IMG/VR virus record: IMGVR_UViG_3300042807_000369
DNA: 61,975 bases
Source of the DNA: a virus
Reading direction: 5' to 3' (one strand)
Position 1 is the first letter of the stretch. Every line of letters begins with the position of its first letter. The notes beneath the pieces were generated by a model, which was not told the origin of the DNA, did not search any database, and saw nothing but the letters and a program-made list of their open reading frames with translations. Shown here piece by piece: positions 14,462 through 59,033 of this stretch. A program made the position numbers and the translations under genes.

Positions 14462-15280
14462 ATGGCCAATGCAGCGGTTGCCTTTGACGGATGGAACGCG
14501 TCTGGCGTAGGCTGGGGGGAACAGCCTTGGGGAGAAGGCGCGCTTGATATTGCTGCAACTGGAGCGGTAGGAACAGTTACGTCTGGGCAAGGCGCAGAAG
14601 TTGTTGTCACTGGGGTATCGGCTGTCGGGGCGGCGGGTCAAGTGGCGGTGGAGGGCGCGGCGCTTATTGTTGTCACTGGGGTATCGGCTGTCGGGGCGGC
14701 GGGTCAAGTGGCGGTGGACACTCTAACGTCCGTTAATGTTACGGGCGTGGAGGGGGCGGCTGCGGTAGGCCAAGTTACGGTACAAACGGCAGGTGCTACG
14801 CTTGTAGACGTTACAGGGGTAGCTGCTGTTTCCTCTGTCGGTCAAGTGGCGGTGGAGGGCGCGGCCCATATCGCTGTTACGGGCGTGGAGGGGGCGGCTG
14901 CGGTAGGCAACGTAGCTGTTGAGAGTTTTACTTCTGTTTCGGTAGACGTTACAGGGGTAGCTGCTGTTTCCTCTGTCGGTCAAGTAACCATAGACACCTC
15001 TGCCACTACTTCGGTCTTTGTTACCGGGGTACAGAGCACTACAGCGGTAGGTCAGGCCGCTGTGCAGGGATTCGCCACTACCCCCGTTACCGGAGTAACA
15101 GGGGCAGGGGAGGTAGGTTCCATTGTGTTCGTAGACGTAACTGTACGGCCGATCGGGGTACAGGCGACAGGGCGGATTGGAAACGTGCTTGTATGGGGGG
15201 CTGTTAACGACAATAATACCGTTACGTGGACGCCTGTTAACGACAGTAATGCCGTTGCATGGTCTACAATTCTCACATAA
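14462..15280 (+). CDS. Tail fibre-like protein with ~22-aa VTGV..A..VGQV.V repeats
   Basis: A 272-aa ORF with an N-terminal W/G motif (FDGWNASGVGWGEQPWGEG) and about 9 degenerate repeats. Several are backed by near-identical DNA repeats. Confidence 0.6.
   Translation: MANAAVAFDGWNASGVGWGEQPWGEGALDIAATGAVGTVTSGQGAEVVVTGVSAVGAAGQVAVEGAALIVVTGVSAVGAAGQVAVDTLTSVNVTGVEGAAAVGQVTVQTAGATLVDVTGVAAVSSVGQVAVEGAAHIAVTGVEGAAAVGNVAVESFTSVSVDVTGVAAVSSVGQVTIDTSATTSVFVTGVQSTTAVGQAAVQGFATTPVTGVTGAGEVGSIVFVDVTVRPIGVQATGRIGNVLVWGAVNDNNTVTWTPVNDSNAVAWSTILT
14601..14985 (+). repeat. Intragenic direct repeats in the VTGV-repeat gene
   Basis: A 66-nt unit is duplicated at 14601/14667. gttacgggcgtggagggggcggctgcggtaggc occurs at ~14738 and ~14876. 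gtagacgttacaggggtagctgctgtttcctctgtcggtcaagt occurs at ~14803 and ~14941. Confidence 0.85.
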
Positions 15281-15289
15281 GGACGCATT

Positions 15290-15997
15290 ATGGCAAGCAC
15301 CTTTTCAGACCTTAAATTTGAACTGATTGGCACTGGAGACCAGGCAGGCAATTGGGGGCAGACCACCAATGACAACATTGGCACGGCCATTGAACAAGCT
15401 ATAACAGGCCTTGGCAATCCCATCTTCACGACAGATGCAAGCCTGACGATTGGCCTTACTGACACTGTTGCCCTTCAAACGGCGCGGGCCTTGGTCCTTA
15501 ACGTCACGTCCACAGGCAGTTTAACTGCAACGCGTGAACTCGTTGTTCCGACAATTGAGAAGCAGTATATTGTTCAAAACAACACTGCAGGCGCTCAAAG
15601 CATCACGGTAAAGACGGCTGCAGGCACAGGTATCACGGTCCCCAATGGCAGCAAGATGCACCTGTACGTTGACGGGGTAAACGTGATAGACGCGGTTTCG
15701 CGTTTTAGCTCCCTTACTCTTGGCGCTGCACTACCTGTTTTGAGTGGAGGCACCGGGACCACGACCCCCAGCTTGGTGGCCGGAACCAATGTCACTATCA
15801 CGGGTGCATGGCCAAATCAGACAATTGCCGCAAGCGGCGGAGGCGGCGGTGGAGCACTTTTAGAGAATAACCAAGAAATTTCAGAGAATTTTATAATCGG
15901 AGCAGGGAAAAATGCTGTAGCAGTGGGGCCTGTGACAGTTAATACAGGATATTCTGTAACAGTGGGCTCTAATCAAAAATGGTTAATTTTTAACTAA
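15290..15997 (+). CDS. Tail fibre 1, N-terminal (anchor) module
   Basis: The first ~185 aa are ~75% identical by eye to the N-terminus of 19296..20870 (STFS.LKFE.IG.G.Q...WG.TTN.NIGTAIEQAITGL...). After a G6 run the gene ends in an AT-rich unrelated tail. Confidence 0.75.
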   Translation: MASTFSDLKFELIGTGDQAGNWGQTTNDNIGTAIEQAITGLGNPIFTTDASLTIGLTDTVALQTARALVLNVTSTGSLTATRELVVPTIEKQYIVQNNTAGAQSITVKTAAGTGITVPNGSKMHLYVDGVNVIDAVSRFSSLTLGAALPVLSGGTGTTTPSLVAGTNVTITGAWPNQTIAASGGGGGGALLENNQEISENFIIGAGKNAVAVGPVTVNTGYSVTVGSNQKWLIFN

Positions 15998-16006
15998 GGA
16001 CTTATT

Positions 16007-16579
16007 GTGAGCAATTTAAAAGTTCAAGGAAATGCGTTGGGTACGGGAACTACAACGCTGCAATCTGGCAACACCAATAGTATTTTTTCTCTTACGCTCC
16101 CTGTTGCAGATGGAACGGCCGGACAGGCCGTGACGACAGACGGATCAGGGGTGCTAGGTTTTGCCTCTGTCGTAGTCCCTGGCGGAGCACTGGGCACCCC
16201 GTCATCTGGCACGCTGTCTTCTTGCACGGTCGACGGTACTGACGCTGTTGGCTTTAGAAACATCCCGCAAAACAGCCAAAGCGCGGCTTACACTCTTGTG
16301 CTTGCTGACGCCGGCAAGCATATTTTTCACCCAGCAGCGGACAACAACGCAAGGACCTTTACGATCCCAGCAAACAGCTCGGTAGCTTATCCGATTGGCA
16401 CCGCGCTCACGTTCATTAACATGGCTGTGGCGGACGTTACGATTGCTATTACAACAGATACTCTGATATTGTCTTCCGCAGGCACAACAGGTTCACGGAC
16501 CTTGGCAACAAACGGGTCGGCAACGTGTATCAAAATCTCAGCTACTGAGTGGCTGATTTCTGGTAGCGGATTGACTTAA
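16007..16579 (+). CDS. Tail fibre 1, distal/receptor-binding module (separate ORF, GTG start)
   Basis: GALGTPSSGTLSSCTVDGTDAVGFRNIPQNSQSAAYTLVLADAGK parallels ALGTPASGALTNCTADGTNQVGYRNVPPSGTKTSSYTLVAADVGK in the C-terminus of fibre 2. The ORF starts 9 nt after the stop of 15290..15997. Confidence 0.6.
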   Translation: MSNLKVQGNALGTGTTTLQSGNTNSIFSLTLPVADGTAGQAVTTDGSGVLGFASVVVPGGALGTPSSGTLSSCTVDGTDAVGFRNIPQNSQSAAYTLVLADAGKHIFHPAADNNARTFTIPANSSVAYPIGTALTFINMAVADVTIAITTDTLILSSAGTTGSRTLATNGSATCIKISATEWLISGSGLT

Positions 16580-16589
16580 AGGCGTTAAT

Positions 16590-17237
16590 ATGAGCGGCGC
16601 ACAACAAATTTCGTTTATGAATCAGCGCTCGTTTGGGCCACCACCTGCTCCCCCTGTAGTTGGGGAGGCCTATGGGGGAGGGTTTTTTGCGGGGCAGATT
16701 TCTACTACTGCGAATAGTGTTGCTACACACAATCTCGTAGTCGGTCCACTATCTACTGCGCAAAATTTAAGTTTGCGATGGAAAACTACAAACACCTCAA
16801 CAACAGGGACAGACTCGGTAATTGACGGCCCTGCAAACAGCGCTAATATGAATGATGCAAGTCATCCAGCAGCACAGTTCTGCGAGGGGTTGACAATTGG
16901 AGGTTTTAGCGATTGGTATCTGCCAGCTAAAAACGAGTTAGAGGTGTGTTACTACAATTTAAAACCAAGCACAGCTTCAAACAATACAGCGTTCGGTATA
17001 AACCCTAATGCCGTACCTGCAAGGGCATCAAACTACACCACAGGTAACCCTGCCCAAACTTCAGCAGTAATTTTCAGAACAGGCAACGCAGAGGCATTTG
17101 CAGGCGGTGCGTATTGGAATAGCACTCAATATTCTGCTACGTACGCGTGGCAAGAGAACTTCCTTGATGGTTACCAAGGTTACGCCAGTAAATCAGGGAA
17201 TTCCCGTGTTCGAGCAATACGCCGCGTATCGGTTTAA
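16590..17237 (+). CDS. DUF1566 (Lcl C-terminal domain)-like protein, putative receptor-binding accessory
   Basis: GGFSDWYLPAKNELEVCYYN ... AYWNSTQYSATYAWQENFLDGYQGYASKSGNSRVRAIRRV matches the DUF1566 pattern (DWRLP...EL...YWSS........F..G.......VR.VR). Confidence 0.6.
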   Translation: MSGAQQISFMNQRSFGPPPAPPVVGEAYGGGFFAGQISTTANSVATHNLVVGPLSTAQNLSLRWKTTNTSTTGTDSVIDGPANSANMNDASHPAAQFCEGLTIGGFSDWYLPAKNELEVCYYNLKPSTASNNTAFGINPNAVPARASNYTTGNPAQTSAVIFRTGNAEAFAGGAYWNSTQYSATYAWQENFLDGYQGYASKSGNSRVRAIRRVSV

Positions 17238-17252
17238 TTAAGGAGCATCACA

Positions 17253-17687
17253 ATGCACATCGTTGTAACAGAAGTTGACCACAAAACCCGCGTTCCTTGC
17301 ACTGTCGAGCCACAGCGCACAGGCCCCTCTATGCCTGCCGTTAAAGGCTTAAAGATCATTTGGACAGATAAGTCCACATGGCCTGTCAGCACAGACGACA
17401 CAGGCACATACCTGCGTGCCCCCAAATACTATGGCACCTGCGATGACGATGCCGACACGAACATCCCTGGCGTGTTGGAAGTCCTGACCGAGGCTGAGTG
17501 GAACGAGCGCCGTGTGACTGAACACGAAGCCACCAAGCCCTATCCATCGTGGATCGGCTACTTGGACACCATGAGCTGGAGCGCCCCCGTAGCTCGTCCA
17601 GTAGATGCCATCATGAACGGCGGCAACGTGCGTTATCAGTGGGATGAAGCCACAGTCAACTGGGTGCCAGCGGAAACTCAAGCATGA
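17253..17687 (+). CDS. Hypothetical protein (144 aa) in fibre locus
   Basis: A track ORF with aaggagc RBS. Its C-terminal YQWDEATVNWV motif is common in small phage proteins. Function unknown. Confidence 0.5.
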   Translation: MHIVVTEVDHKTRVPCTVEPQRTGPSMPAVKGLKIIWTDKSTWPVSTDDTGTYLRAPKYYGTCDDDADTNIPGVLEVLTEAEWNERRVTEHEATKPYPSWIGYLDTMSWSAPVARPVDAIMNGGNVRYQWDEATVNWVPAETQA

Positions 17688-18505
17688 AGGAGTTTTTCTT
17701 CATCTCGGGGCTGCCACGGTCGGGGTCAACTCTGCTGTCGGCTATCCTGCGTCAGAACCCTGAGTTCTACGCAGACATCTCCTCGCCCGTGCAAAGCTTG
17801 GTGGCATCGACCATCAATGTTATCACGGGCAGTGAGAGCAACCACCTGATTGATGAAGACCGCCGCAAGAGCATCTTGCGTGCCATGTTCAACGCCTACT
17901 ACGACGCTGTTGAGCCGCCTACCGTGTTCGACACTAGCCGGGGATGGACATCCAAAACATCGCTTTTGAAGGCTCTGTACCCACAGACCAAGATCATCTG
18001 CTGCGTGCGGGACCTGCCATGGATTCTGGACAGTTTTGAACGCATTGCAACTAAAAACAGCTTGTGGAACGCCAGCCTGACCGATAATGAAGCCAGCCAA
18101 ACGGTAACCACTCGATGCGACGCTCTAATGGACGTTAAAAAGGAAGGCCAGGTCGTCAAGCCCTACTATTTCTTGGAAGAAGGCCTGCTCTTAAGCCCCG
18201 ACATGATCATGCTGGTGGAGTATGAGATGCTGTGCAAGCAGCCCGAGAGCGTGATGCGGGAGCTGTATAGCTTTATCGGCAAGCCATATTTTGACCACGA
18301 CTACATGAACGTCGAGTACGATAACGAGGTGTACGACAAGGCGCTGAACATGAAGAGCTTGCACACAGTTCGCAAGCAAGTTTCGTGGCAAGAGCGCCCG
18401 TCAATCCTGCCCAAGTCGGTGTGGGAGAAGTACTCAGGCAAGGAGTTTTGGCGCAAACCAGCCCCAGAGTTCTCCGTCAAGTCACTCTACAAAGTCAAAG
18501 GTTGA
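17684..18505 (+). CDS. Sulfotransferase (PAPS-dependent family)
   Basis: It has an N-terminal 5'-PSB loop ISGLPRSGSTLL and a 3'-PB-like VRDLPWILDSF (R..x..S). At ~270 aa it is the size of Stf0/NodH-type sulfotransferases. It overlaps the upstream gene by 4 nt. Confidence 0.75.
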   Translation: MKEFFFISGLPRSGSTLLSAILRQNPEFYADISSPVQSLVASTINVITGSESNHLIDEDRRKSILRAMFNAYYDAVEPPTVFDTSRGWTSKTSLLKALYPQTKIICCVRDLPWILDSFERIATKNSLWNASLTDNEASQTVTTRCDALMDVKKEGQVVKPYYFLEEGLLLSPDMIMLVEYEMLCKQPESVMRELYSFIGKPYFDHDYMNVEYDNEVYDKALNMKSLHTVRKQVSWQERPSILPKSVWEKYSGKEFWRKPAPEFSVKSLYKVKG

Positions 18506-18507
18506 GC

Positions 18508-19293
18508 ATGAAGCGCATTTTAGTCATGGGTTTGCCCGGTTCCGGCAAAACAACTTTGGCTCAGCATATCCTTGAGCACCTGCAAAACGAGCGCAAAACA
18601 GTCATGTGGCTGAACGCCGATGACGTGCGCAAGAAGTACAACGACTGGGATTTTTCTCACGAGGGCCGTATCCGCCAGAGCCTGCGCATGCGGGAGTTAG
18701 CTGACAGCTACACCACCGATTACGTGATCTGCGACTTCGTGGCCCCTCTGGTGGAGATGCGTAACAACTTCAAGGCCGACTGGACTGTCTGGGTGGACAC
18801 CATCGAGCAGGGCCGGTTTGAAGACACCAACAAGGCGTTCATCGCGCCGGAGCAGTACGACTTCCGCATCACTGAGCAAAAGGCTGAGAAGTGGGGTGAG
18901 TTTGTAGCTGCGCACATCTTGGACAACCGCCGCCGTTCCGTGTTTGACTGGCAGAAAGAAACCGTGCAGATGCTTGGCAGATGGCAGCCGTGGCACAAGG
19001 GCCACCGTGCGTTGTTTGAGCGTGCGATTGCCAAGACGGGTCAAGTGGTTATCCAGATCAGAGACTGCCAAGGCTGGAACGGCTCCAACCCCTTTGCCGC
19101 AAATCAAGTTAAAGAGTTCATCAAGCGCGACCTTGATCCGTTGTATCAAGGCCAGTACGAAATACAACTTGTGCCCAACGTAGTAAACATCACCTATGGC
19201 AGAGACGTGGGCTACAAGATTGAACAAGAATCTTTTGACGAGGCCACGCATGCCATCTCGGCTACGAAGATTCGTAATGAAATGGGAGTTTAA
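18508..19293 (+). CDS. Fusion protein: APS (adenylylsulfate) kinase-like domain + HxGH nucleotidyltransferase domain
   Basis: The ATG at 18508 lies 3 nt after the sulfotransferase stop. The N-domain GLPGSGKTTLA...LNADDVRKKYNDWDFSHEGRIRQSLRMRELA...WVDT matches CysC (GLSGSGKST.A...LDGDNVR..L...LGFS..DR.ENIRR..EVA...FVDT). The C-domain GRWQPWHKGH ... ISATKIRNEM matches the cytidylyl/adenylyltransferase motifs GxFxPxHxGH and ISSTxIR. Confidence 0.7.
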   Translation: MKRILVMGLPGSGKTTLAQHILEHLQNERKTVMWLNADDVRKKYNDWDFSHEGRIRQSLRMRELADSYTTDYVICDFVAPLVEMRNNFKADWTVWVDTIEQGRFEDTNKAFIAPEQYDFRITEQKAEKWGEFVAAHILDNRRRSVFDWQKETVQMLGRWQPWHKGHRALFERAIAKTGQVVIQIRDCQGWNGSNPFAANQVKEFIKRDLDPLYQGQYEIQLVPNVVNITYGRDVGYKIEQESFDEATHAISATKIRNEMGV

Positions 19294-19295
19294 TC

Positions 19296-20870
19296 ATGCC
19301 AAGCACCTTTTCAAGTCTCAAGTTCGAGATCATCGGCAGCGGCGAGCAGTCGAACACTTGGGGCAATACAACTAACACCAACATTGGCACCGCTATTGAG
19401 CAAGCCATCACAGGTCTAAGTAATCCAGTTTTTGCTTCTGACGCTGATTTAACAATCAGCCTGACCGACTTGCTGGGCCCCGCTTTGCAGGTCCCGCGAG
19501 CCCTGGTCCTAAACGTCACGTCCAGCGTTTCCTTGACCGCGACTCGAAATTTAGTAGTCCCGACAATTGAGAAGCAATACCTGGTTCAAAACAACACGTC
19601 AGGTGGCCGAAGCATTGTTGTAAAAACGGCGGCGGGCACGGGCATTACCGTGCCCAATGGCGCAAAGATGCACCTGTATGTTGACGGGGTAAACGTCATA
19701 GATGCAGTGTCGCATTTCAGCGCGCTGACTCTTGGCGCTGCTCTGCCTGTTACAAGCGGGGGCACGGGCACCACTACTCCTGCTTTGGTACAAGGGACCA
19801 ACGTTACAATCACCGGCGCTTGGCCAAATCAGACAATTAACGCAGTCGGGTCTGGGGACGTTGTAGGCCCGGCATCCGCCACGGACAGTGCATTGGCCGC
19901 GTTTGATGGCACTACAGGCAAATTGCTTAAAGAAGCGGCCACGGTAAGTGTGGCGCAGGGCGGCACCGGTCTGACTACTGCCACTGCTTACAGCGTAGTA
20001 TTTTCGGGCACTACGAGCACCGGAGCTTTCCAGGCCTCTGCCGGTCCAGGAACCGCGACGCACGTCTTGACCAGCAATGGTCCTGGCGCATTGCCCACGT
20101 TTCAAGCACCACCCACATTAGGTAACCTTACAGGGGCGGTGACCTCAGTAGGCGTTGCTACCTCTTTGGGCTCGTTTACCTCTGCTGATTTGGCTGGGGC
20201 TTTGACTGATGAAACAGGAAGTGGTGCGGCAGTTTTTGCAAACACCCCAACACTTATCACACCTAATTTAGGGACACCAACTACGCTGGTTGGCACCAAC
20301 ATTACGGGCACAGCGGCAGGCCTGACAGCAGGCACTGTGACAACCAACGCCAACCTGACGGGCATGGTCACTTCGGTCGGCAACGCGGCTTCTTTGGGGT
20401 CATTTACTTCCGCCAACTTGGCGGCAGCCTTGACCGACGAAACGGGTACTGGCGCGGCAGTCTTCGCCAACAGCCCCACCCTGATAACACCTGCTCTTGG
20501 CACACCTGCCAGCGGCGCGCTGACCAACTGCACGGCAGACGGCACTAACCAGGTTGGTTATCGCAACGTACCCCCCTCGGGCACTAAAACGTCTAGTTAC
20601 ACCTTGGTGGCGGCAGACGTTGGCAAATTTGTTGAGCTGGGAACTGGTGGCAGTGTTACTGTTCCTGCGGGCGTGTTTGCGGCGGGGGACGTTGTAAGCA
20701 TCTTCAACAACACCAGCGGAACCATTGCTTGCACTTGCTCTGCCATCACCGATGTATATAAAGCTGGAACTGATACTGACATTAGCAGCTTCAGCATCAC
20801 CACACGTGGCGTGGCCAACATCCTTTTCATCACCGCCACCCGCGCAGTGGTAACGGGGAACTTGGCATGA
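19296..20870 (+). CDS. Tail fibre 2 (full length)
   Basis: A 524-aa ORF whose N-terminus is paralogous to 15290..15997. It has an internal duplicated ~50-aa motif NLTG.VTSVG.A.SLGSFTSA.LA.ALTDETG.GAAVFAN.PTLITP.LGTP typical of phage fibres, and a C-terminus paralogous to 16007..16579. Confidence 0.85.
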   Translation: MPSTFSSLKFEIIGSGEQSNTWGNTTNTNIGTAIEQAITGLSNPVFASDADLTISLTDLLGPALQVPRALVLNVTSSVSLTATRNLVVPTIEKQYLVQNNTSGGRSIVVKTAAGTGITVPNGAKMHLYVDGVNVIDAVSHFSALTLGAALPVTSGGTGTTTPALVQGTNVTITGAWPNQTINAVGSGDVVGPASATDSALAAFDGTTGKLLKEAATVSVAQGGTGLTTATAYSVVFSGTTSTGAFQASAGPGTATHVLTSNGPGALPTFQAPPTLGNLTGAVTSVGVATSLGSFTSADLAGALTDETGSGAAVFANTPTLITPNLGTPTTLVGTNITGTAAGLTAGTVTTNANLTGMVTSVGNAASLGSFTSANLAAALTDETGTGAAVFANSPTLITPALGTPASGALTNCTADGTNQVGYRNVPPSGTKTSSYTLVAADVGKFVELGTGGSVTVPAGVFAAGDVVSIFNNTSGTIACTCSAITDVYKAGTDTDISSFSITTRGVANILFITATRAVVTGNLA

Positions 20871-22231
20871 GCGGGATTGTGCTTAACATTTTAGGGGCCA
20901 GTTTTGGCGCGGCGTTTGCTCCTGTGGGTTTTTTGGCTTCAATTAGTAATCCTAACGGCAATGCTGTTGATAACTCTAATCTGGCTATAAGGAGCGATCA
21001 GCTAAATGCGTCTGTCCAAACTTCAGCAGCCGGTGTTACACAACTTACCGCACTGAGTCTCCCGCTCACATTAGACAGTATTACCTGGCAAGTCGCGCTT
21101 ACTGACGGGGCAGACGTGCCTGTGGCCAGGCAGATTGCAATTGACTCTGCAGGTAACCCCGTTATAGCAGGCTATAAATTTGTTACTTTTAATAACTTCA
21201 ATGCAGGCTACGTTGTTAAATTTAACAGCAGTGGAGTTGTTCAATGGCAGCGTCGAGTACAAGCCGACTGTGGTTTTTTTGGGCTTACTATAGACGCTAG
21301 CGACAACATTTACTGTGCAGGCGCTGCTCGTTTTTTCTCCCCTAGCCGCTTTGACATTTATGTTTCTAAACTTGATTCCTCTGGCACGCTTCAATTTCGA
21401 AGAAACATTGGAGACACCGGCTCACCTTTTGAATCAGCAAGTGCTGTTTCAATAAACAATGCAGATTGGTTTAATGTAGCTGCAAGCTCTGACGCACCTG
21501 GTAATTTGGACTCCGCTTTTCTTATTCTTGACCGCTCAACAGGGGACACAATAGGTGCAGTAACCCAAAGAGACTCAAGTGGTTCGGGCAGGCAAGAGGG
21601 CATAGACGTTGTCCGTGGAGAGGCAGATACGATAAGTTATTTTTTGCTTCGTACATTTTCAACGTTATCTTCTGGTAGCAAGTCTGATCAAGTGCTTTTA
21701 CGGCACACAAATGCGGGGGGGTTTGTATGGCAACGACAACTCTCTACTGATCAAACTATTGCGCCTGTACGCTTGGCCATGGACCCCAGTAACACGCATG
21801 TCTACACCTGTGCTAACTTGACAAGTTCTGATGGATTACGTCAGGAGCTTCTTCTTGTTAAATATGGTGCTGACGCTACGGGGTCTCTGATTTGGCAGCG
21901 AAAACTAGCATGTCCTACAGCGAGCCTTACGGTACGATCCATTGCAACAGATTCCTTAGACAATGTGTACATAACTATGGATCAGTTTTCGTCCGGGTTA
22001 TCGGACAGGGTGTTAGTTCTTAAAATGCCAGGGAGTGGCGCGGGTGCCGGAAACTCCGCTGTTCTTGACGGTAGGACGTACACCTATTCAGAGTCCAGCG
22101 TGTCGGCTTTCTCAGGGGGACTTGTTATTACGGCTTACAGCCCTGTCAATAGCCAATTTTCTGAAACATTAACAACTCCAACTGCGGCAAGTGCCTCCAA
22201 TACGTTAGCTATTGCAGGGGAATCAGTGTGA
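20867..22231 (+). CDS. Beta-propeller-repeat (SBBP-like) protein, putative tail spike/receptor-binding protein
   Basis: A 454-aa ORF with recurring D..(D/G)N(I/V)Y..G......D.(Y/L)V.K(L/Y)...G...WQR blades (DASDNIYCAG...DIYVSKLDSSGTLQFRR; DSLDNVYITM...; LLLVKYGADATGSLIWQRK). It is AT-richer than its flanks and coupled to fibre 2 by a 4-nt overlap. Confidence 0.5.
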   Translation: MSGIVLNILGASFGAAFAPVGFLASISNPNGNAVDNSNLAIRSDQLNASVQTSAAGVTQLTALSLPLTLDSITWQVALTDGADVPVARQIAIDSAGNPVIAGYKFVTFNNFNAGYVVKFNSSGVVQWQRRVQADCGFFGLTIDASDNIYCAGAARFFSPSRFDIYVSKLDSSGTLQFRRNIGDTGSPFESASAVSINNADWFNVAASSDAPGNLDSAFLILDRSTGDTIGAVTQRDSSGSGRQEGIDVVRGEADTISYFLLRTFSTLSSGSKSDQVLLRHTNAGGFVWQRQLSTDQTIAPVRLAMDPSNTHVYTCANLTSSDGLRQELLLVKYGADATGSLIWQRKLACPTASLTVRSIATDSLDNVYITMDQFSSGLSDRVLVLKMPGSGAGAGNSAVLDGRTYTYSESSVSAFSGGLVITAYSPVNSQFSETLTTPTAASASNTLAIAGESV

Positions 22232-22265
22232 TCGCAACGGTTAACAAAGCAAGTGGGGTTTAATC

Positions 22266-22358
22266 ATGCGAGACTGGCTCGTTGCTTTTATTGCAGCGGC
22301 CAGTCTGGTCGGGCTGACTGTCTGGACGGCGCGGGCCGTCATTCTTGCATTGGGATAA
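22266..22358 (+). CDS. 30-aa single-TM peptide (hypothetical)
   Basis: The ORF reads MRDWLVAFIAAASLVGLTVWTARAVILALG. It is below the track cutoff, and its stop lies directly before the next ATG. Confidence 0.35.
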   Translation: MRDWLVAFIAAASLVGLTVWTARAVILALG

Positions 22359-22359
22359 T

Positions 22360-22818
22360 ATGATTGACCTTACCAAAGCGATTGGGGCTGTTGCTGCCAG
22401 TGTTGCCGCACTGGGAGGTAGTTATACGTTGGCCGACAAGTTTGGTTGGTTTGATCGTGCCATTCTTGAGTGGTCACCGCAGCACTTCAACATCCCGGCA
22501 GCAAAGATTGGTGAGCCCATCAACGTGACTGTTGCGCGGATCAAGAAGCGCGACGACTGCTCGGTGGAAGCGTTTACACCGTCAGTGCGTGATGCAGCAG
22601 GTATGGTGCATGAGGCCACGCCCTCGAACAGTAAGTTCACAGGCCCCGCTGGTAACGAAGTGGACACTTTCATGTACCAGCTCAAGCTGTCAGAAAAGGA
22701 ACCTGTAGCTCCCGGCAAGGCGACCCTGACCGCCATCATCAAATACAAATGTCCCGAGGGTGAACGGGTAGTCACGTACCCCCGGCATGAGAATCTTTCT
22801 TTTGCATTGGACAGATAA
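22360..22818 (+). CDS. Membrane-anchored protein (152 aa), lysis-cassette neighbour
   Basis: An internal ATG at 22360 and an N-terminal hydrophobic helix (AIGAVAASVAALGG). No domain recognised. Confidence 0.5.
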   Translation: MIDLTKAIGAVAASVAALGGSYTLADKFGWFDRAILEWSPQHFNIPAAKIGEPINVTVARIKKRDDCSVEAFTPSVRDAAGMVHEATPSNSKFTGPAGNEVDTFMYQLKLSEKEPVAPGKATLTAIIKYKCPEGERVVTYPRHENLSFALDR

Positions 22819-33134: not shown

Positions 33135-36100
33135 ATGTCTAAAAATGATCAGATTCCTGAAGGCTGGGAGCCAGTTGCACGTCCCGGCATGTCCGTAGAT
33201 AGCCCCACATCCGAGCCACTTCCCGAGGGCTGGGAGCCAGTTGCAAGTCCTGCGTCAGAGCTCGCAGGCCAAGCAGCCTTGGGCGCGGGCCAGGGTCTCA
33301 TAAGCGCCACTCCAGCAGTAGGCGGTGCGGTGACCGGACTAAAGCTGGGCCTCCCCTTTGGCCCATTTACAGCGGCGGCTGGCATGATCGGTGGGGGCAT
33401 TGCTGGATACTATGCAGGCCAGAGTGCGGAGGACGCTTACAAGTCGTTTTTCCCGGAGCCCAGCAGCCCCGATGCAAAGGTTTTCCGGGAAGCGGGCAAG
33501 ACCTTCGGCGGCAGCCTGCCGTTCGCAGCAGCTGTTCCCTATCTGCCCACGATGACTGGCAACCGCGTCAGTCGCTTTGTCACAAGCATCCGCGACGCCG
33601 CCGTGCGCAACCCCAAGACGTTCAAGACCAGCGAGGTCATGGGCGCACTTGGTGCGGGCATTGGCGCAGGCGTAGCCGAGAGCGAAGACCCGGGAGCGCC
33701 TGGTACACGCCTTGCTGGAGAAGTGATTGGCGGCATGCTCTCCCCAGGGCGGTTCCTGATCAACCAAACGGGGACCGTGATTGACGGCCTGTCGAAGATC
33801 AAAGGCAACTTCAGCGAGGCCTCGCGTGAGGCCCGCGCTGCAGATCGCCTAAGAACAATTTTGGAAGAGTTTGGGGAAGACATTCCCACGTTGATCCGTC
33901 GTCTGGAAGCAGACATGCCGATTGACCAGCTGTCCTCGCCTGGCGCAAAGCGTCTTACCCCTACGTCTGCACAGAAGACAGACAGCCTGGGCCTGACTGC
34001 TCTGGAATCGGCCCTGGGCCAAACTAACAAGAAGTTTCTTGGGGAAGCGCGAGAGCAGGGCCGCCAAGCGGCGCAGGCCTACCAGTTATTGGCGGACCGG
34101 CTGAAAAACATTGGCACTCCTGACTCCTTGGCCCTGGCCGCGCAGTTGCAAGAGGTCCGGTTTAACTCAATGATTGACGGGCGCTTGGCTGATGCTGACA
34201 GGATCGCAGCGTTAAAAATTTCCAAGATTACCAAAGACACTCCTCAGGCCCGCCGGACTATTGGCGAGACAATCAAGGAGCAGACCGAACTTGCGTTACG
34301 CGATGCCCGAGATTACGAGTCGAGCCTGTGGAAAGACGCCCTGTCGCAGATGACGCGCAAGCCTGTGGCCATGCCACCTGGCGTGCCGTTAAACGTGGTT
34401 TCTATCCCAACGCTTGCACCCGTAAACACGGTCAAGGATTTCTTGGACTACACAACAGGCATCGGCGATGCGGTGCTCGACAAGAACACCCCGGCTGTCG
34501 TCAAAAGCATCATGTCCAAGTTTGGCGTGACGCCCGACGCGATCAAGAAGTACAAAGCAGGTCGTCGTAGTGAGGAGTTTGCTCTCACCGGTCAAATCCC
34601 GGCACGCTTTCTGCCCCAAACCAAAGATTTAGACTTGTCTGAGCTGGTGAACTACCGCTCCAACCTTCTGACCATGGCGCGTGAGGCAGCAAGCAAGGGT
34701 GAAGCCAGCAACGCCAACTTCTACAGCACTATTGCGCAAAGCCTGATGCGGGACTTGGACACTGTCAAAAGTCCGGCGTTCGACGAAGCACGCACCTTCT
34801 CCAAGGCACTGAACGACGTCTTCACCCGAACGTTTGCAAAAACAGCGTCTGAAAGCGCTGATGTCACCCGCGCCGGCGCAGAGCGCTTGCCCGCTGAAAT
34901 CCTGGTGAAGCGCGCATTTGGTGCGAATGCGGATGTGACGGCCATGCGCATGAACGAGCTTGAAGACGCGGTCAAGTTCATGTCGACTCAATATGACAGC
35001 GCCGTAGCCCGCTTTGGCGCGAACAGCCCACAAGCTGCCGCGCTCAAACCTGCTGCAGACGTTTCGCGTGCAGGGGCGGCCTCTATGGCCGACGCGCAGC
35101 AGCGCGTTCTTCGCATGGGCGCGGCGGCTGCGATCGACAGCACCTTTGATCCCGCCACCGGGCGTGAAGTCACGCGCCTGAACACCACAAAACTGAAAAA
35201 GTTTGTGGCAGAAAACAAACCTATGCTGGACAAGTTGGGCATCACGCCTGATTTGAATGATGCAGTCAAGGCAGAGAACGCTTTCCGCATGGTGCAGAGC
35301 GAAAACAGCGCCCTGATGAAGCGCGCTTCGGACCAGTATGCGTTTGGGCAGGTTCTCAAGGTAGGCAACGAGCGCCCCAGCATTGCAATTGGAAGCATGC
35401 TTAACGGCAACAACCCGGTCCGGGACATGAAGAATTTGGTCAAGATGGCCACGGATTCTGACAACGCAGAAGCAGCTGTTCGAGGGCTGAAGCACTCGCT
35501 GTATGACTATGCCTACACCAAGGCTACCGGCCCTAGCGGCAAGTTCAGCCCCCAGGCTTTTGAAGACGCTTTCTTCAAACCTTTGGGACCGAATCAGCCT
35601 TCCGTCGTAAACGTCATGCGCGCCAACGGTCTTATGACGCTTACAGAGATGAAAAATCTCAAGCGCCTTACAGACCCGATGGCCCGCATCGAATCCGCTA
35701 TGACTAGCGGCCGTATGTTGGACGAAATAGTTCCGGGAAGCGACGCGATTGAAGAGTTGGTGCAACGCGTTATCGGAGCTCGAATTGGCGCTGCAGCGGC
35801 CCCTGGTGGACCAGGCTCGCTGATCGCGGCTTCCGCAGGCTCCAAAGCCGTGCGATCCATCTTTGACAAAATGCCTAGCATGAGTACCGTGACCATCATG
35901 GAAAGGGCCGCACAGGACCCTGATTTCATGGCGCTGCTGCTCAAGAAGGGCCGCACAGAGACTGAGAAGCTGCAGATTGCTCGGCAGCTGCATGGCTACA
36001 TGCTGAACGCAGGACTGAACTACGCCACCTACGAAGAGCCTGAACCCACGCCCGCTCCCACCAACCAATCGCCGCTGACAACTCAAGGCCAGGCCGCGCG

Positions 36101-36305
36101 GCTGCTACGCCAACTCCCCCAGGCCCCGTCTACCCGGGGGGTCCCAGGGCTCAACCTTGCCCCCAAACCAGCAGGCCAGCCGGCCGCGTCAAACAACGCC
36201 CCTGCAAACCCTTCCGCGCGGTCTCAGTTCCAAGCGCTGTTCCCAAATGACAGCATTAGTGGTCTGGCTGCGCAGCAGGCACAGCAGCCGCCTGTGCCGC
36301 AGTAA
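33135..36305 (+). CDS. Internal virion protein 4 (largest, 1056 aa)
   Basis: The size and position (last of the structural operon) resemble T7 gp16-class proteins. It has an N-terminal duplicated PEGWEPVA motif and then a Gly-rich hydrophobic segment. I recognised no transglycosylase motif. Confidence 0.5.
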   Translation: MSKNDQIPEGWEPVARPGMSVDSPTSEPLPEGWEPVASPASELAGQAALGAGQGLISATPAVGGAVTGLKLGLPFGPFTAAAGMIGGGIAGYYAGQSAEDAYKSFFPEPSSPDAKVFREAGKTFGGSLPFAAAVPYLPTMTGNRVSRFVTSIRDAAVRNPKTFKTSEVMGALGAGIGAGVAESEDPGAPGTRLAGEVIGGMLSPGRFLINQTGTVIDGLSKIKGNFSEASREARAADRLRTILEEFGEDIPTLIRRLEADMPIDQLSSPGAKRLTPTSAQKTDSLGLTALESALGQTNKKFLGEAREQGRQAAQAYQLLADRLKNIGTPDSLALAAQLQEVRFNSMIDGRLADADRIAALKISKITKDTPQARRTIGETIKEQTELALRDARDYESSLWKDALSQMTRKPVAMPPGVPLNVVSIPTLAPVNTVKDFLDYTTGIGDAVLDKNTPAVVKSIMSKFGVTPDAIKKYKAGRRSEEFALTGQIPARFLPQTKDLDLSELVNYRSNLLTMAREAASKGEASNANFYSTIAQSLMRDLDTVKSPAFDEARTFSKALNDVFTRTFAKTASESADVTRAGAERLPAEILVKRAFGANADVTAMRMNELEDAVKFMSTQYDSAVARFGANSPQAAALKPAADVSRAGAASMADAQQRVLRMGAAAAIDSTFDPATGREVTRLNTTKLKKFVAENKPMLDKLGITPDLNDAVKAENAFRMVQSENSALMKRASDQYAFGQVLKVGNERPSIAIGSMLNGNNPVRDMKNLVKMATDSDNAEAAVRGLKHSLYDYAYTKATGPSGKFSPQAFEDAFFKPLGPNQPSVVNVMRANGLMTLTEMKNLKRLTDPMARIESAMTSGRMLDEIVPGSDAIEELVQRVIGARIGAAAAPGGPGSLIAASAGSKAVRSIFDKMPSMSTVTIMERAAQDPDFMALLLKKGRTETEKLQIARQLHGYMLNAGLNYATYEEPEPTPAPTNQSPLTTQGQAARLLRQLPQAPSTRGVPGLNLAPKPAGQPAASNNAPANPSARSQFQALFPNDSISGLAAQQAQQPPVPQ

Positions 36306-38402: not shown

Positions 38403-38425
38403 GTGTTCTCTCTTTCTTGCAGGGG

Positions 38426-38455
38426 TTGCAACCACCTGAAAAGATAGTGTACACT
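38426..38455 (+). promoter_or_regulatory. Possible promoter of the replication operon (divergent region)
   Basis: TTGCAA-N18-TACACT lies about 30 nt upstream of the AAAGGAGAAA RBS and GTG 38487. Confidence 0.3.
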
Positions 38456-38486
38456 GGTCGCTCGAATTCAGAAAGGAGAAATTCAC

Positions 38487-56740: not shown

Positions 56741-56940
56741 GATGTAACCTTTCTTAATGAAAATGTGTAGCTAGTCCCGTCAAGGTGATAATCCCGGCTT
56801 TCGCAATTGATATAGCGGCATATACGCAGTTTCCCGCCAATACCAAATTTAACTCTAGCCTGACGTAAGGCCTCCCGCCATGTAGTCGCTAAGACCTCTT
56901 TATGCCATGTTCCGTGATCTGAAAATAAGAAGTAGGTCAT
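56737..56940 (-). CDS. Island ORF 9 (67 aa)
   Basis: A track ORF with ATGA coupling. Confidence 0.55.
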   Translation of the reverse strand: MTYFLFSDHGTWHKEVLATTWREALRQARVKFGIGGKLRICRYINCESRDYHLDGTSYTFSLRKVTS

Positions 56941-57460: not shown

Positions 57461-57464
57461 GGTG

Positions 57465-58288: not shown

Positions 58289-58298
58289 GGTGCGCCCC

Positions 58299-59022: not shown

Positions 59023-59033
59023 GGCGTACCTCT

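What the first reader, a model, noticed from the sequence alone, without database searches (positions are those of the whole stretch)
17684..19293. Sulfation cassette (sulfotransferase + APS-kinase fusion) embedded in the tail-fibre locus
Seen: 17684..18505 has the PAPS-binding 5'-PSB loop (GLPRSGSTLL) and a 3'-PB-like R..x..S element. The next gene, 3 nt downstream, opens with a CysC-like APS kinase domain. Established: sulfotransferases use PAPS, and APS kinase makes PAPS from APS. O-antigen or receptor-modifying genes in phages typically sit next to tail spike or fibre genes. Inference: the phage supplies both the donor-synthesis step and the transferase. It may sulfate a host envelope glycan or lipid (receptor masking, superinfection exclusion, release of progeny) or one of its own fibre or DUF1566 proteins. 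I am not aware of a described phage system pairing these two activities at a fibre locus. This is the best candidate in the window for a new functional module.
Basis: partly seen in the sequence, partly recalled or inferred. Interest (0 to 1): 0.8.

Follow-up and report, generated by a model that had tools for sequence, protein, structure and literature searches.

The report
Phage sulfation cassette beside tail fibres
A lytic-looking phage carries, between two tail-fibre genes, a sulfotransferase gene followed directly by a small two-domain enzyme related to the kinase that makes the sulfate donor PAPS; this pairing recurs in many uncultured phages and gives a testable lead on what phage sulfotransferases do.

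Summary
17684..18505 encodes a Sulfotransfer_3-family, PAPS-type sulfotransferase (ST) in which both PAPS-binding motifs are intact. Two nucleotides later, 18508..19293 encodes a 261-aa fusion. Its N-terminal domain is a short APS-kinase-like domain: APS_kinase is the best Pfam family, and the top 43 Foldseek PDB hits are all APS kinases. Its C-terminal domain is a ~110-aa HxGH nucleotidyltransferase (NT).

The pairing is not chance. Of 80 related viral contigs, 72 carry an ST-family gene within 5 kb upstream of the fusion, and 5 more have the ST domain just outside the fetched flank. Four different ST types are involved. A kinase-only gene fills the same position in other phages. Some soil Alphaproteobacteria place the fusion next to TPR-sulfotransferases, and the NT domain also occurs fused to a canonical CysC.

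Caveats:
- The kinase lacks the canonical lid and fails the CysC equivalog cut-offs.
- The NT domain is closest by sequence to NadM-type NMN adenylyltransferases, not to ATP sulfurylase.
- The fusion also occurs without any ST in Sano-like phages, large phages and SAR11.
- The sulfate acceptor is unknown.

Verdict: a real, conserved donor-plus-transferase sulfation module that I did not find described for phages. It is a new variant of a known kind. Interest 0.6.

The parts
17684..18505 (+). Sulfotransferase gene (273 aa), Sulfotransfer_3 / TPST-CurM-like clade of PAPS-dependent sulfotransferases
   Evidence: Pfam PF13469 7e-19 and PF00685 8.7e-11. phrog_27463 6.9e-48. A family profile hits CurM/OLS sulfotransferase domains at 1e-24 and TPST1/2 at 3e-18 among solved structures. 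Orthologues at 83-95% identity are abundant in metagenomes.
17708..17731 (+). 5'-phosphosulfate-binding loop GLPRSGST (residues 9-16)
   Evidence: G9, P11, R12, G14 and T16 are invariant across 8 divergent sulfotransferases. The loop aligns with the TPST1 PSB loop GVPRSGTT.
18008..18034 (+). 3'-phosphate-binding element R109-x7-S117 (RDLPWILDS)
   Evidence: R109 and S117 are invariant in alignment A5.
18508..19293 (+). Bifunctional gene (261 aa): APS-kinase-like domain plus small HxGH nucleotidyltransferase domain. Starts 2 nt after the ST stop codon.
   Evidence: Sequence. phrog_10255 'kinase' 4.5e-52 over the full length. AlphaFold2 model with mean pLDDT 92. More than 8000 metagenomic homologues. 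dN/dS about 0.025.
18508..18945 (+). Short APS-kinase-like P-loop kinase domain (residues 1-146)
   Evidence: APS_kinase is the top Pfam family, 46.5 bits against a cut-off of 21.1, covering profile positions 5-94 of 152. The top 43 Foldseek PDB hits are all APS kinases, TM 0.55-0.75 on the target. There is an 18-residue lid deletion relative to a canonical CysC.
18529..18555 (+). Walker A / P-loop GLPGSGKTT (residues 8-16)
   Evidence: G8, L9, P10, G11, G13 and K14 are invariant in 90 family members.
18619..18687 (+). Segment D38-R60 (DDVRKKYNDWDFSHEGRIRQSLR). It corresponds to the CysC segment DGDNLR...LGFSPEDRTENIRR.
   Evidence: D38, R41, F49, R54 and R60 are invariant even when a canonical CysC is included. 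That this segment binds APS in CysC is from my own knowledge of CysC structures.
18955..19290 (+). Miniature HxGH nucleotidyltransferase domain (residues ~150-261)
   Evidence: A profile of the domain hits archaeal and NadM-type NMN adenylyltransferases at 3e-11 to 1e-8 and finds no ATP sulfurylase. The model has pLDDT 88.6. Foldseek gives only generic HxGH-fold hits (PPAT, PanC, NMNAT, ATP sulfurylase) at E about 1e-2.
18994..19005 (+). HxGH motif (H163-K-G-H166) within GRWQPWHKGH
   Evidence: G157, R158, Q160, H163, G165 and H166 are invariant.
19198..19215 (+). Invariant GRDVGY loop (residues 231-236)
   Evidence: G231, R232, V234, G235 and Y236 are invariant and D233 is conserved in at least 90% of members. 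At motif level it resembles the ATP sulfurylase GRD loop described in PMC3779200. Profile comparison does not support the resemblance.
19255..19275 (+). ISATKIR motif (residues 250-256), the ISxTxxR signature of this nucleotidyltransferase superfamily
   Evidence: I250, S251, A252 and T253 are nearly invariant and R256 is invariant. The motif aligns with YSGTEIRRRM of M. jannaschii NMN adenylyltransferase.
15290..15997 (+). Upstream tail-fibre gene (context)
   Evidence: PHROG tail-fibre families at 1.9e-13 and 1.4e-10. Its first 187 residues are 79% identical to those of 19296..20870.
16590..17237 (+). Lcl_C (DUF1566) protein (context; candidate receptor-binding or acceptor protein)
   Evidence: Pfam PF07603 1.2e-12. 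Present upstream of the ST in most related loci at 50-72% identity.
17253..17687 (+). 144-aa protein of unknown function whose stop overlaps the ST start. Co-conserved with the cassette.
   Evidence: 68-90% identical and directly upstream of the ST in the window-type loci. phrog_7759 1.4e-5. No Pfam hit.
19296..20870 (+). Downstream tail-fibre gene (context), starting 2 nt after the fusion gene
   Evidence: PHROG tail-fibre family at 4.1e-8. N-terminal paralogy with 15290..15997.
20867..22231 (+). Beta-propeller (SBBP-repeat) protein (context)
   Evidence: Pfam PF06739 1.9e-7.

Best explanation
This is a two-gene sulfation cassette transcribed with the late tail-fibre genes.

Gene A is a cytoplasmic, PAPS-dependent sulfotransferase of the Sulfotransfer_3 (TPST/CurM-like) clade. 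Family membership is shown; activity is inferred.

Gene B supplies its donor. The N-terminal domain is a shortened APS-kinase homologue that phosphorylates the 3'-OH of APS to give PAPS. That step is inferred from homology, fold and gene linkage. The fused ~110-aa HxGH nucleotidyltransferase domain most likely feeds or supports this step, with sulfate adenylylation (making APS) as the favoured guess. This is the weakest link in the model.

If so, sulfation during infection would not depend on the host's repressible cys regulon. The logic is the same as in rhizobial NodPQ-NodH or Xanthomonas RaxPQ-RaxST.

The acceptor is not identified. The cassette sits between two fibre paralogues. In relatives the same position holds other decorating enzymes: methyltransferase, GT2/GT25, UDP-galactopyranose mutase (Glf), look-alikes of the ADP-heptose pathway, and an ST fused to a TPR/GT9-like domain. 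From this I infer that the target is a surface structure involved in adsorption. It could be the phage's own fibre or receptor-binding proteins, or glycans on them, or a host envelope glycan precursor.
For: Sulfotransferase:
- Pfam cut-offs are passed and both PAPS-binding motifs are invariant.
- A family profile finds only PAPS-dependent sulfotransferases among solved structures.

Kinase domain:
- APS_kinase is the top Pfam family for the window protein and for six relatives (38-62 bits, cut-off 21.1).
- The best PDB sequence hit is an APS kinase at 1e-6.
- The model has pLDDT 92, and its top 43 Foldseek hits are all APS kinases.
- D38, R41, F49, R54 and R60 are shared with a canonical CysC.

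Linkage in phages:
- 53 of 80 related viral loci have the orthologous ST abutting the fusion. Another 19 have a divergent ST-family gene (25-29% identity) within 5 kb. Five more have the C-terminal part of an ST-X protein cut by the locus edge. Two of the remaining three have too little upstream flank to judge, and only L089 has none within 5 kb.
- Searching from the ST-X side, 40 of 49 loci with at least 4.5 kb of downstream sequence carry a kinase-family gene 0.4-5 kb downstream. About half of these are kinase-only genes with the CysC-like motif INKDLGFSxEDRxEQARRMG, in the same position.
- An ST-plus-fusion pair also occurs in an unrelated clamp-loader context (L087/L088).

Linkage in bacteria:
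- 5 of 22 non-SAR11 genome loci have sulfotransferase-type neighbours: 3 TPR-Sulfotransfer_3 and 2 arylsulfotransferase.
- These are the most recurrent non-TPR families among 79 neighbouring genes, and no NAD-related family appears in the 25 families listed.

Domain fusions elsewhere:
- The NT domain occurs fused to a full-length canonical CysC (PF01583 5.7e-63) on several independent contigs.
- It also occurs fused to the short kinase in the reverse order (P0313).

Other:
- The genes are tightly packed and co-directional with the fibre genes. There is no signal above chance for promoters or terminators and no compositional anomaly.
- Selection is strongly purifying.
Against: - The kinase matches only the first ~60% of the APS_kinase profile. 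It lacks 18 lid residues (KGLYKKARAG...FTG) and scores far below the NCBIfam CysC cut-offs (33.9 against 138.7). A changed substrate is therefore possible.
- By sequence profile the NT domain is nearest NadM/archaeal NMN adenylyltransferase (3e-11). It shows no detectable specific similarity to ATP sulfurylase, and Foldseek cannot discriminate.
- The NT domain is dispensable for the association with sulfotransferases.
- The fusion is kept without any detectable sulfotransferase in several lineages. In Sano/Salvo-like Casjensviridae it overlaps a NADAR gene. It is also found alone in phage DLP_6, in 150-190 kb phages (among nucleotide-metabolism genes) and in SAR11 genomes.
- There is no biochemical evidence, and the acceptor is unidentified.
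Confidence: 0.6

Rival explanations
1. Gene B is an NAD+-related enzyme and is only a neighbour of the sulfotransferase. The NT domain would be an NMN adenylyltransferase, and the kinase would phosphorylate nicotinamide riboside or the adenosine ribose of NAD. This would be a compact counterpart of NadR/NARP3-type NAD+ rebuilding used against NAD-depleting defences. The ST would then use host-made PAPS.
For: - The NT-domain profile hits NadM/archaeal NMN adenylyltransferases at 3e-11 to 1e-8, sharing the GRxQPxHxGH and NPF motifs.
- In Sano/Salvo-like phages the gene overlaps a NADAR-domain gene.
- The fusion is widespread in phages that lack a sulfotransferase.
- Phage bifunctional kinase+NMNAT enzymes (NadR-like Bas30_86, NARP3) are established (PMC13464706).
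- Some automated JGI names read 'nicotinamide riboside kinase'.
Against: - The kinase is APS-kinase-like by sequence and fold, not NadR-RNK-like. No NadR appears in the top 50 Foldseek hits, and AAA_28 is not among the 25 Pfam families listed.
- About 25 residues of the NMN adenylyltransferase middle segment (M. jannaschii residues 76-108) are missing. From memory, this is where the nicotinamide-binding residues lie.
- All NMN adenylyltransferase NCBIfam cut-offs are missed (33.7 against 127).
- The domain order is the reverse of NadR.
- No NAD-pathway family is among the 25 families listed in the bacterial neighbour census, whereas sulfotransferases recur.
- The NT domain is fused to a canonical CysC in P0321.
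- The near-universal ST linkage in this phage group would be a coincidence.
Confidence: 0.12
2. Gene B makes a different activated compound. One possibility is a 3'-phospho-ADP-X cofactor, by analogy with PPAT plus dephospho-CoA kinase. Another is a kinase-then-nucleotidyltransferase activation of a small alcohol, as LicA/LicC do for phosphocholine. The product would serve as another decoration or a general metabolic aid, and the sulfotransferase would be just one of several interchangeable decorating enzymes in a variable island.
For: - The position is a variable decoration island. Methyltransferase, GT2, GT25, Glf, CTP_transf_like, PfkB and epimerase genes replace or join the ST in relatives.
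- The kinase domain is also found fused to GDSL-like and NTP_transferase domains.
- The altered lid suggests a changed substrate.
- PPAT is among the best Foldseek hits for the NT domain.
- The fusion occurs alone in many genomes.
Against: - The residues shared with CysC (D38, R41, F49, R54, R60) are invariant.
- Kinase-only genes in the same position look even more CysC-like.
- The sulfotransferase is the only partner that is nearly always present (77 of 80 loci).
- The fusion of the NT domain to a canonical CysC points to the sulfate pathway.
Confidence: 0.15

Closest known systems
Dedicated sulfate-activation plus sulfotransferase loci of bacteria: rhizobial NodP/NodQ with NodH (Nod-factor sulfation) and Xanthomonas RaxP/RaxQ with RaxST (tyrosine sulfation of RaxX). 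From my own knowledge.
   Same: A specialised locus carries its own PAPS-supply enzyme or enzymes next to a PAPS-dependent sulfotransferase that decorates a surface or secreted molecule involved in recognition. RaxST and the window ST are both Sulfotransfer_3-type.
   Different: In those loci activation uses canonical CysD/CysN-type ATP sulfurylase and a full CysC. Here there is a 261-aa protein with a lid-less APS-kinase-like domain and a 110-aa NadM-like nucleotidyltransferase. The context is a phage fibre operon, and the acceptor is unknown.
Metazoan PAPS synthase (PAPSS1/2)
   Same: The domain order is the same: an N-terminal APS kinase and a C-terminal HxxH-type nucleotidyltransferase-fold enzyme on one polypeptide. 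PAPSS1 APS-kinase structures are among the top Foldseek hits.
   Different: The PAPSS ATP-sulfurylase domain is about 390 aa and has QxRN and GRD loops. The phage NT domain is about 110 aa with no profile-level similarity to it. No activity has been shown.
Canonical APS kinase CysC (PF01583 / TIGR00455)
   Same: P-loop, DxxR, FSxExR and (I/V)xP motifs; overall fold; Pfam gathering score passed.
   Different: 18-residue lid deletion. Only profile positions 5-94 of 152 are matched. The first Asp of the DGD motif is Asn. NCBIfam equivalog cut-offs are not met.
Sulfotransferase 'auxiliary metabolic genes' of cyanophages and marine or glacier viromes (S-SKS1, S-SRM01, S-SCSM1; OM43-phage-like genomes)
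   Same: Same Sulfotransfer_3 family, 25-32% identical. Reported only as annotations, with the stated conclusion that their function in phages 'remains unclear' (PMC10580990; PMC8290583).
   Different: Those phages show no homologue of the kinase fusion. Among GenBank phages, the ST-bearing and fusion-bearing sets do not overlap.
NadR-like bifunctional enzyme of the phage NARP3 system (Bas30_86) and NadM-type NMN adenylyltransferases
   Same: A phage-encoded fusion of a P-loop kinase with an HxGH adenylyltransferase. The NT domain shares the GRFQPFHxGH signature (PMC13464706).
   Different: Reverse domain order. The kinase is of the APS-kinase type. The NT domain is truncated. No PnuC partner was seen in the cassette. 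The conserved partner is a sulfotransferase.
Phage glycan-modification modules placed next to tailspike or fibre genes (O-antigen gtr/oac seroconversion cassettes; virion glycosylation in mycobacteriophages). From my own knowledge.
   Same: Surface-decorating enzymes are encoded beside adsorption genes, and the gene content of that position varies between relatives.
   Different: The chemistry here is sulfation with its own donor supply. The phage has its own DNA polymerase, primase and helicases, and no integrase was found among the ORFs scanned, so classical lysogenic seroconversion is unlikely.

Membership tests
PAPS-dependent sulfotransferase, Sulfotransfer_3 (PF13469) | Profile match above the curated cut-off | tested here: met
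   69.4 bits against a cut-off of 27, covering profile positions 2-215 of 216. The family profile hits CurM/OLS-ST at 1e-24 and TPST1/2 at 3e-18.
PAPS-dependent sulfotransferase, Sulfotransfer_3 (PF13469) | 5'-phosphosulfate-binding loop (PxxGS/TT type) | tested here: met
   GLPRSGST at residues 9-16. G9, P11, R12, G14 and T16 are invariant in A5.
PAPS-dependent sulfotransferase, Sulfotransfer_3 (PF13469) | 3'-phosphate-binding element (R ... S) | tested here: met
   R109 and S117 are invariant in A5.
PAPS-dependent sulfotransferase, Sulfotransfer_3 (PF13469) | Catalytic base and acceptor site (Glu in TPST, His in many others) | tested here: inconclusive
   In the TPST1 alignment the position of the TPST Glu (placed from memory) is not a Glu in the window protein. 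No structure was predicted for the ST.
PAPS-dependent sulfotransferase, Sulfotransfer_3 (PF13469) | PAPS-dependent sulfuryl transfer to an acceptor | not testable with these tools
   Needs an enzyme assay.
APS kinase (CysC; PF01583, TIGR00455) | Pfam domain score above the cut-off | tested here: met
   44.6-46.5 bits against a cut-off of 21.1; top family.
APS kinase (CysC; PF01583, TIGR00455) | Equivalog-level score (NCBIfam) | tested here: not met
   TIGR00455 33.9 against 138.7; NF004041 46.3 against 127.
APS kinase (CysC; PF01583, TIGR00455) | Walker A loop, the DGDxxR segment, and the FSxEDRxxNxRR segment | tested here: met
   GLPGSGKT is present. NADDVR replaces DGDNLR, with D38 and R41 invariant and the first Asp changed to Asn. 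DFSHEGRIRQSLR is present, with F49, R54 and R60 invariant.
APS kinase (CysC; PF01583, TIGR00455) | C-terminal lid (KGLYKKARAGxIxxFTGIxxPYE) | tested here: not met
   An 18-residue deletion, replaced by an invariant R(F/Y)xDTN segment. Only profile positions 5-94 of 152 are matched.
APS kinase (CysC; PF01583, TIGR00455) | APS-kinase fold | tested here: met
   The top 43 Foldseek PDB hits are APS kinases, TM 0.55-0.75 on the target. The model has pLDDT 92.
ATP sulfurylase (Sat / PAPSS C-terminal domain) | Specific sequence similarity including the QxRN(P) loop | tested here: not met
   No ATP sulfurylase among PDB profile hits at E up to 10.
ATP sulfurylase (Sat / PAPSS C-terminal domain) | HxxH motif, GRD loop and shared nucleotidyltransferase fold | tested here: inconclusive
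   HKGH and an invariant GRDVGY loop are present, and the GRD loop's role is described in PMC3779200. ATP sulfurylases appear among the Foldseek hits, but no better than PPAT, PanC or NMNAT.
NadM/archaeal-type NMN adenylyltransferase | GRFQPFHxGH and ISxTxxR motifs; profile similarity | tested here: met
   GRWQPWHKGH and ISATKIR are present. The PDB profile search gives 3.2e-11 to MJ0541.
NadM/archaeal-type NMN adenylyltransferase | Full-length match above curated cut-offs, including the middle NMN-binding segment | tested here: not met
   NF002243 33.7 against 127; TIGR01527 30.8 against 181. The domain's profile positions 79-86 stand in for NMN adenylyltransferase residues 76-108, a deletion of about 25 residues.
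NadR / NARP3 (NMNAT + nicotinamide riboside kinase, with PnuC) | Domain order NMNAT then RNK; RNK (AAA_28) type kinase; PnuC partner gene | tested here: not met
   The order is kinase then NT. The kinase is APS-kinase-like. No transporter gene lies in the cassette or among the immediate neighbours examined. A whole-window PnuC search was not done.

The most novel reading that the evidence does not exclude
The 261-aa protein is a self-sufficient miniature PAPS synthase. Its ~110-aa NadM-derived domain would be a new, minimal type of sulfate adenylyltransferase, and the lid-less kinase would complete PAPS synthesis. With it, a whole group of abundant uncultured phages would sulfate their own tail-fibre or receptor-binding proteins, or glycans on them. 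That would be the first sulfated virions of a bacterial virus. The same small enzyme would also give SAR11 and soil Alphaproteobacteria an unrecognised route to PAPS.
Probability: 0.2. Interest if true: 0.85.

Novelty: new variant of a known kind. Interest (0 to 1): 0.6.

Why it matters
Sulfotransferase genes are repeatedly listed as phage 'auxiliary metabolic genes', and one such report states that their role in phages remains unclear (PMC10580990).

This locus shows that, in a large group of uncultured phages, the sulfotransferase travels with its own APS-kinase-like gene. At least 593 IMG/VR stretches encode a relative of the fusion, and metagenomes hold thousands of protein homologues. The pair lies inside a variable decoration island at the fibre locus. 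That turns a vague annotation into a defined, testable two-enzyme module placed where host recognition is decided.

It also flags an uncharacterised, very widespread enzyme family, phrog_10255, annotated only as 'kinase'. The family occurs in Casjensviridae, large phages, SAR11 and soil Alphaproteobacteria, and its second domain may be a new kind of adenylyltransferase.

If phages sulfate fibres or receptors, that would add a new chemical layer to adsorption, host range and superinfection exclusion.

Tried and rejected
- DNA-level search of 15000-22500 against GenBank phages found no match. No isolate-based annotation could be borrowed.
- Searching for a specific link between the NT domain and ATP sulfurylase failed. 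A profile search of PDB sequences found none at E up to 10. Foldseek on the isolated domain gave about 75-column matches to PPAT, PanC, NMNAT and ATP sulfurylase alike. The fold cannot assign a substrate.
- I tested whether the extra domains fused to the kinase in P0330, P0291 and P0297 are sulfotransferases. They carry PRSG(S/C)T-like, R...S and YE motifs, but Pfam gives only 0.096 and hhalign aligns only 22 columns at 43% probability. This is left as suggestive only.
- Promoter and terminator scans and the composition profile around the cassette showed nothing above chance and no sign of recent foreign origin.
- A 209-aa gene sits directly upstream of the kinase at the same coordinates in SAR11 (L129) and in locus L004. 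The two proteins are unrelated, and neither resembles the L022 methyltransferase, so this is a coincidence of coordinates.
- The 144-aa protein upstream of the ST is not detectably related to the 136-aa protein that precedes the kinase in ST-X loci.
- Classical lysogenic seroconversion was considered and set aside. The window encodes its own DNA polymerase, primase, helicases and terminase, and no integrase was found among the ORFs scanned.
- Literature searches for a described phage sulfotransferase/APS-kinase pair returned nothing relevant.
- A search for a paper confirming which NMN adenylyltransferase residues bind nicotinamide found nothing in the library. That point rests on memory.

Full report
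WHAT IS THERE

The window is a phage genome or most of one. It encodes a portal, a major head protein, virion proteins, an endolysin, a primase, helicases, a DNA polymerase and both terminase subunits. It has no tRNA, and no integrase was found among the ORFs scanned.

On the + strand, genes run head to tail with overlaps or 2-nt gaps:
- a fibre gene (15290..15997);
- a 190-aa protein (16007..16579);
- an Lcl_C/DUF1566 protein (16590..17237);
- a 144-aa protein of unknown function (17253..17687);
- ORF A (17684..18505);
- ORF B (18508..19293);
- a second fibre gene (19296..20870);
- an SBBP beta-propeller protein (20867..22231);
- the lysis genes.

The two fibre genes share a 79%-identical N-terminal 187 residues. 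The cassette therefore lies between two fibre paralogues. Promoter and terminator scans and base composition show nothing that sets the cassette apart from this late operon.

ORF A

ORF A is a sulfotransferase (ST). It passes the Pfam cut-offs for Sulfotransfer_3 (7e-19) and Sulfotransfer_1.

I aligned it with seven ST domains sharing only 19-29% identity, taken from other phage contigs and from alphaproteobacterial TPR-sulfotransferases. The only invariant positions are G9, P11, R12, G14 and T16 (the 5'-phosphosulfate loop GLPRSGST), R109 and S117 (the 3'-phosphate element), and Y180.

A profile of that alignment finds only PAPS-dependent enzymes among solved structures:
- CurM/OLS sulfotransferase domains (1e-24, 7e-19);
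- tyrosylprotein sulfotransferases 1 and 2 (about 3e-18);
- then cytosolic sulfotransferases and heparan-sulfate 3-O-sulfotransferases.

The acceptor cannot be read from this. The protein has no signal peptide or membrane segment visible at its N-terminus, so it should act in the cytoplasm.

ORF B

The true start of ORF B is ATG 18508, which is 2 nt after the ST stop, not 3. It has two domains. An AlphaFold2 model built on a 90-sequence alignment is confident (mean pLDDT 92).

Residues 1-146 form a P-loop kinase.
- Its best Pfam family is APS_kinase, above the cut-off.
- Its best PDB sequence match is an APS kinase.
- Its top 43 Foldseek matches are all APS kinases.
- Aligned with a canonical CysC, it keeps the P-loop, D38 and R41 (DGDxxR segment), F49, R54 and R60 (FSxEDRxxNxRR segment), and the F77/P80 segment.
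- It lacks 18 residues of the lid and carries an invariant R(F/Y)xDTN segment instead.
- It fails the NCBIfam CysC equivalog cut-offs.

It is therefore a member of the APS-kinase superfamily but not a canonical CysC.

Residues ~150-261 form a very small HxGH nucleotidyltransferase (NT).
- It has invariant GRxQPxHxGH, R185, NP, PN, YGRDVGY and ISATxIR motifs.
- Its profile is closest to NadM/archaeal NMN adenylyltransferases (3e-11). About 25 residues of their middle segment are missing, and all NMN adenylyltransferase cut-offs are missed.
- There is no specific similarity to ATP sulfurylase. The invariant GRD loop does recall the sulfate- and ribose-binding GRD loop of that enzyme (PMC3779200).
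- Foldseek on the isolated domain (pLDDT 88.6) cannot discriminate between PPAT, PanC, NMNAT and ATP sulfurylase.

IS THE PAIRING REAL?

The fusion has more than 8000 metagenomic homologues, and at least 593 IMG/VR stretches encode a relative of it. I classified the 80 best viral loci, whose fusion is 85-93% identical to the window's:

| Number of loci | Situation upstream of the fusion |
|---|---|
| 53 | Orthologous ST ends exactly at the fusion start |
| 19 | Divergent ST-family gene (25-29% identity) within 5 kb |
| 5 | C-terminal part of an ST-X protein cut by the edge of the fetched locus |
| 2 | Too little upstream sequence to judge |
| 1 (L089) | None within 5 kb |

The divergent STs are of three further types:
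- a 258-aa ST separated from the fusion by one small gene (L029);
- a 270-aa ST directly upstream of the fusion in a clamp-loader (replication) context (L087, L088);
- 525-595-aa proteins with an N-terminal ST domain and a TPR/GT9-like C-terminal part ('ST-X').

I then searched from the ST-X side. Of 49 loci with at least 4.5 kb of downstream sequence, 40 have a kinase-family gene 0.4-5 kb downstream. Across the ST-X loci, 22 carry the full fusion and 24 carry a 141-159-aa kinase-only gene in the same position. These kinase-only genes have a more CysC-like motif (INKDLGFSxEDRxEQARRMG), and APS_kinase is again the top Pfam family.

The constant partner of the ST is therefore the APS-kinase-like domain. 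The NT domain is an optional addition.

Both window genes are under strong purifying selection (dN/dS about 0.03).

OUTSIDE THIS PHAGE GROUP

The fusion family (phrog_10255, annotated only as 'kinase') also occurs in other settings.
- In Sano/Salvo-like Casjensviridae of Xylella, Xanthomonas and Stenotrophomonas, it overlaps a NADAR gene in the early region.
- In Stenotrophomonas phage DLP_6 and in 150-190 kb phages, it sits among nucleotide-metabolism genes.
- None of these contexts shows a detectable ST.

Among GenBank phages, the ST-bearing set (cyanophages, marine single-cell viruses) and the fusion-bearing set do not overlap. No deposited phage genome in that collection has the pair.

The family is also cellular.
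- Many SAR11 genomes carry the kinase and the NT as two adjacent ORFs, with no ST nearby.
- Soil Alphaproteobacteria carry the fusion. There, 5 of 22 loci have sulfotransferase-type neighbours: three TPR-Sulfotransfer_3 in different orientations and two arylsulfotransferases.
- These are the most recurrent non-TPR families among 79 neighbouring genes. No NAD-pathway family appears among the 25 families listed.

A search of 1.84 billion representative proteins turned up informative fusions.
- P0321 joins the NT domain to a full-length canonical CysC (5.7e-63). It is seen on several independent bacterial contigs.
- P0313 has the NT and the kinase in reverse order.
- Other proteins fuse the kinase to GDSL-like or NTP_transferase domains, or to domains with an ST-like P-loop. 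This last ST assignment could not be confirmed.

HOW IT MOST LIKELY WORKS

Shown:
- Gene A belongs to the PAPS-dependent sulfotransferases, with its cofactor motifs intact.
- Gene B's kinase belongs to the APS-kinase superfamily.
- The two are linked far beyond chance, across ST types and across phages and bacteria.

Inferred:
- The kinase makes PAPS for the ST.
- The NT domain helps that supply, most economically by making APS from sulfate and ATP. This would free the phage from the host's repressible cys regulon. It would also explain the fusion to a canonical CysC and the PAPSS-like domain order.
- The target is a surface structure relevant to adsorption.

The last inference rests on context. 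In relatives the same position contains a methyltransferase, GT2, GT25 and UDP-galactopyranose mutase genes. It also holds a CTP_transf_like + PfkB + epimerase set resembling the ADP-heptose pathway, and RCC1-repeat proteins.

I put 0.6 on the cassette model as a whole and about 0.25-0.3 on the NT domain being a sulfate adenylyltransferase.

RIVALS

- NAD+-related enzyme (0.12). Support comes from the NadM-like sequence, the NADAR neighbour in Sano-like phages, and the precedent of NARP3 (PMC13464706). Against it stand the APS-kinase-type kinase, the deleted middle segment, the reversed domain order, the CysC fusion and the ST linkage.
- Another activated compound, or a general decoration-island enzyme (0.15). 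The changed lid and the occurrences without an ST leave room for this.

COMPARISON AND NOVELTY

Functionally, the closest analogues are dedicated activation-plus-transferase loci such as NodPQ-NodH and RaxPQ-RaxST, and architecturally the metazoan PAPS synthase. The differences are the miniature, non-canonical enzymes and the phage fibre-operon setting.

Phage sulfotransferases have so far been reported only as annotated auxiliary genes, and one of these reports states that their function in phages remains unclear (PMC10580990 and PMC8290583). My searches found no description of a phage ST paired with an APS-kinase-like gene.

I rate it a new variant of a known kind. The reading that would make it much more novel is a new minimal ATP sulfurylase combined with sulfated virions. 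The evidence does not exclude that reading, but it is unproven.

Noticed in passing
window 15290-15997 and 19296-20870 (also 16007-16579): Two tail-fibre genes share a 79%-identical N-terminal 187 residues and then diverge completely. The 190-aa ORF 16007-16579 shares a 47-residue block (55% identity) with the C-terminal part of the second fibre. The phage seems to carry two alternative fibres on one attachment domain, with the sulfation cassette between them.
   Followed up: partly
window 14462-15280 (repeat at 14737-14985): A Gly/Val/Ala-rich protein with a 138-bp tandem repeat (1.8 copies, 82% matches) lies just upstream of the first fibre gene. It has no family hit.
   Followed up: partly
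L052 5783-7956; likewise L179, L181-L183, L187, L188, L192 and others: In related phages the position after the kinase gene holds a 143-aa CTP_transf_like gene, a 236-aa PfkB-like kinase and a 258-aa NAD-dependent epimerase, sometimes with a cupin. The set resembles an ADP-heptose pathway. It sits next to an ST fused to a TPR/GT9-like domain and two RCC1-repeat proteins, which would fit a phage-encoded heptosylation system.
   Followed up: partly
L190 13109-13552, L213 8134-8613, L238 2399-2827 and about 20 further loci: Stand-alone 141-159-aa APS-kinase-like genes with the canonical-looking INKDLGFSxEDRxEQARRMG motif, and still without the CysC lid, occupy the position that the fusion occupies in other ST-X loci.
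   Followed up: yes
L129 6001-6408 and 6375-6782 (Ca. Pelagibacter sp. Uisw_130 chromosome); about 55 further SAR11 loci: SAR11 genomes carry the kinase and the NT domain as two adjacent, overlapping ORFs, about 50-55% identical to the phage protein. Neighbours include a Rieske oxygenase, a methyltransferase and an enoyl-CoA hydratase, with no sulfotransferase within 6 kb.
   Followed up: partly
L090 3979-5768; L092, L093: In large phage contigs the fusion directly follows, or lies near, a 329-341-aa adenylosuccinate-synthetase homologue (the size of PurZ). Ribonucleotide reductase, IMP dehydrogenase, AhpC and 2OG-Fe(II) oxygenase genes are also nearby.
   Followed up: no
L001 5559-6735, L002 5559-6735 (Sano/Salvo-like Casjensviridae): Here the fusion overlaps by 8 nt a NADAR (COG3236) gene. 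A MazG-like pyrophosphatase and a gene annotated 'cysteine dioxygenase' lie a few genes upstream. No sulfotransferase is detectable.
   Followed up: partly
P0265, P0345, P0349, P0382 (metagenomic proteins): The short APS-kinase-like domain also occurs fused to GDSL/SGNH-like domains (weak Pfam support) and to a sugar-phosphate NTP_transferase domain (PF00483, 4.6e-15).
   Followed up: partly
window 56900-59330: A block of small minus-strand genes has clearly lower G+C (0.45-0.475) than the window average of about 0.55. It lies just upstream of the terminase large subunit gene.
   Followed up: no
window 36000-38500: This is the highest-G+C stretch of the window (0.616). It contains a minus-strand helicase gene (36951-38486, phrog_62) that overlaps a 514-aa plus-strand ORF with no family hit.
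   Followed up: no
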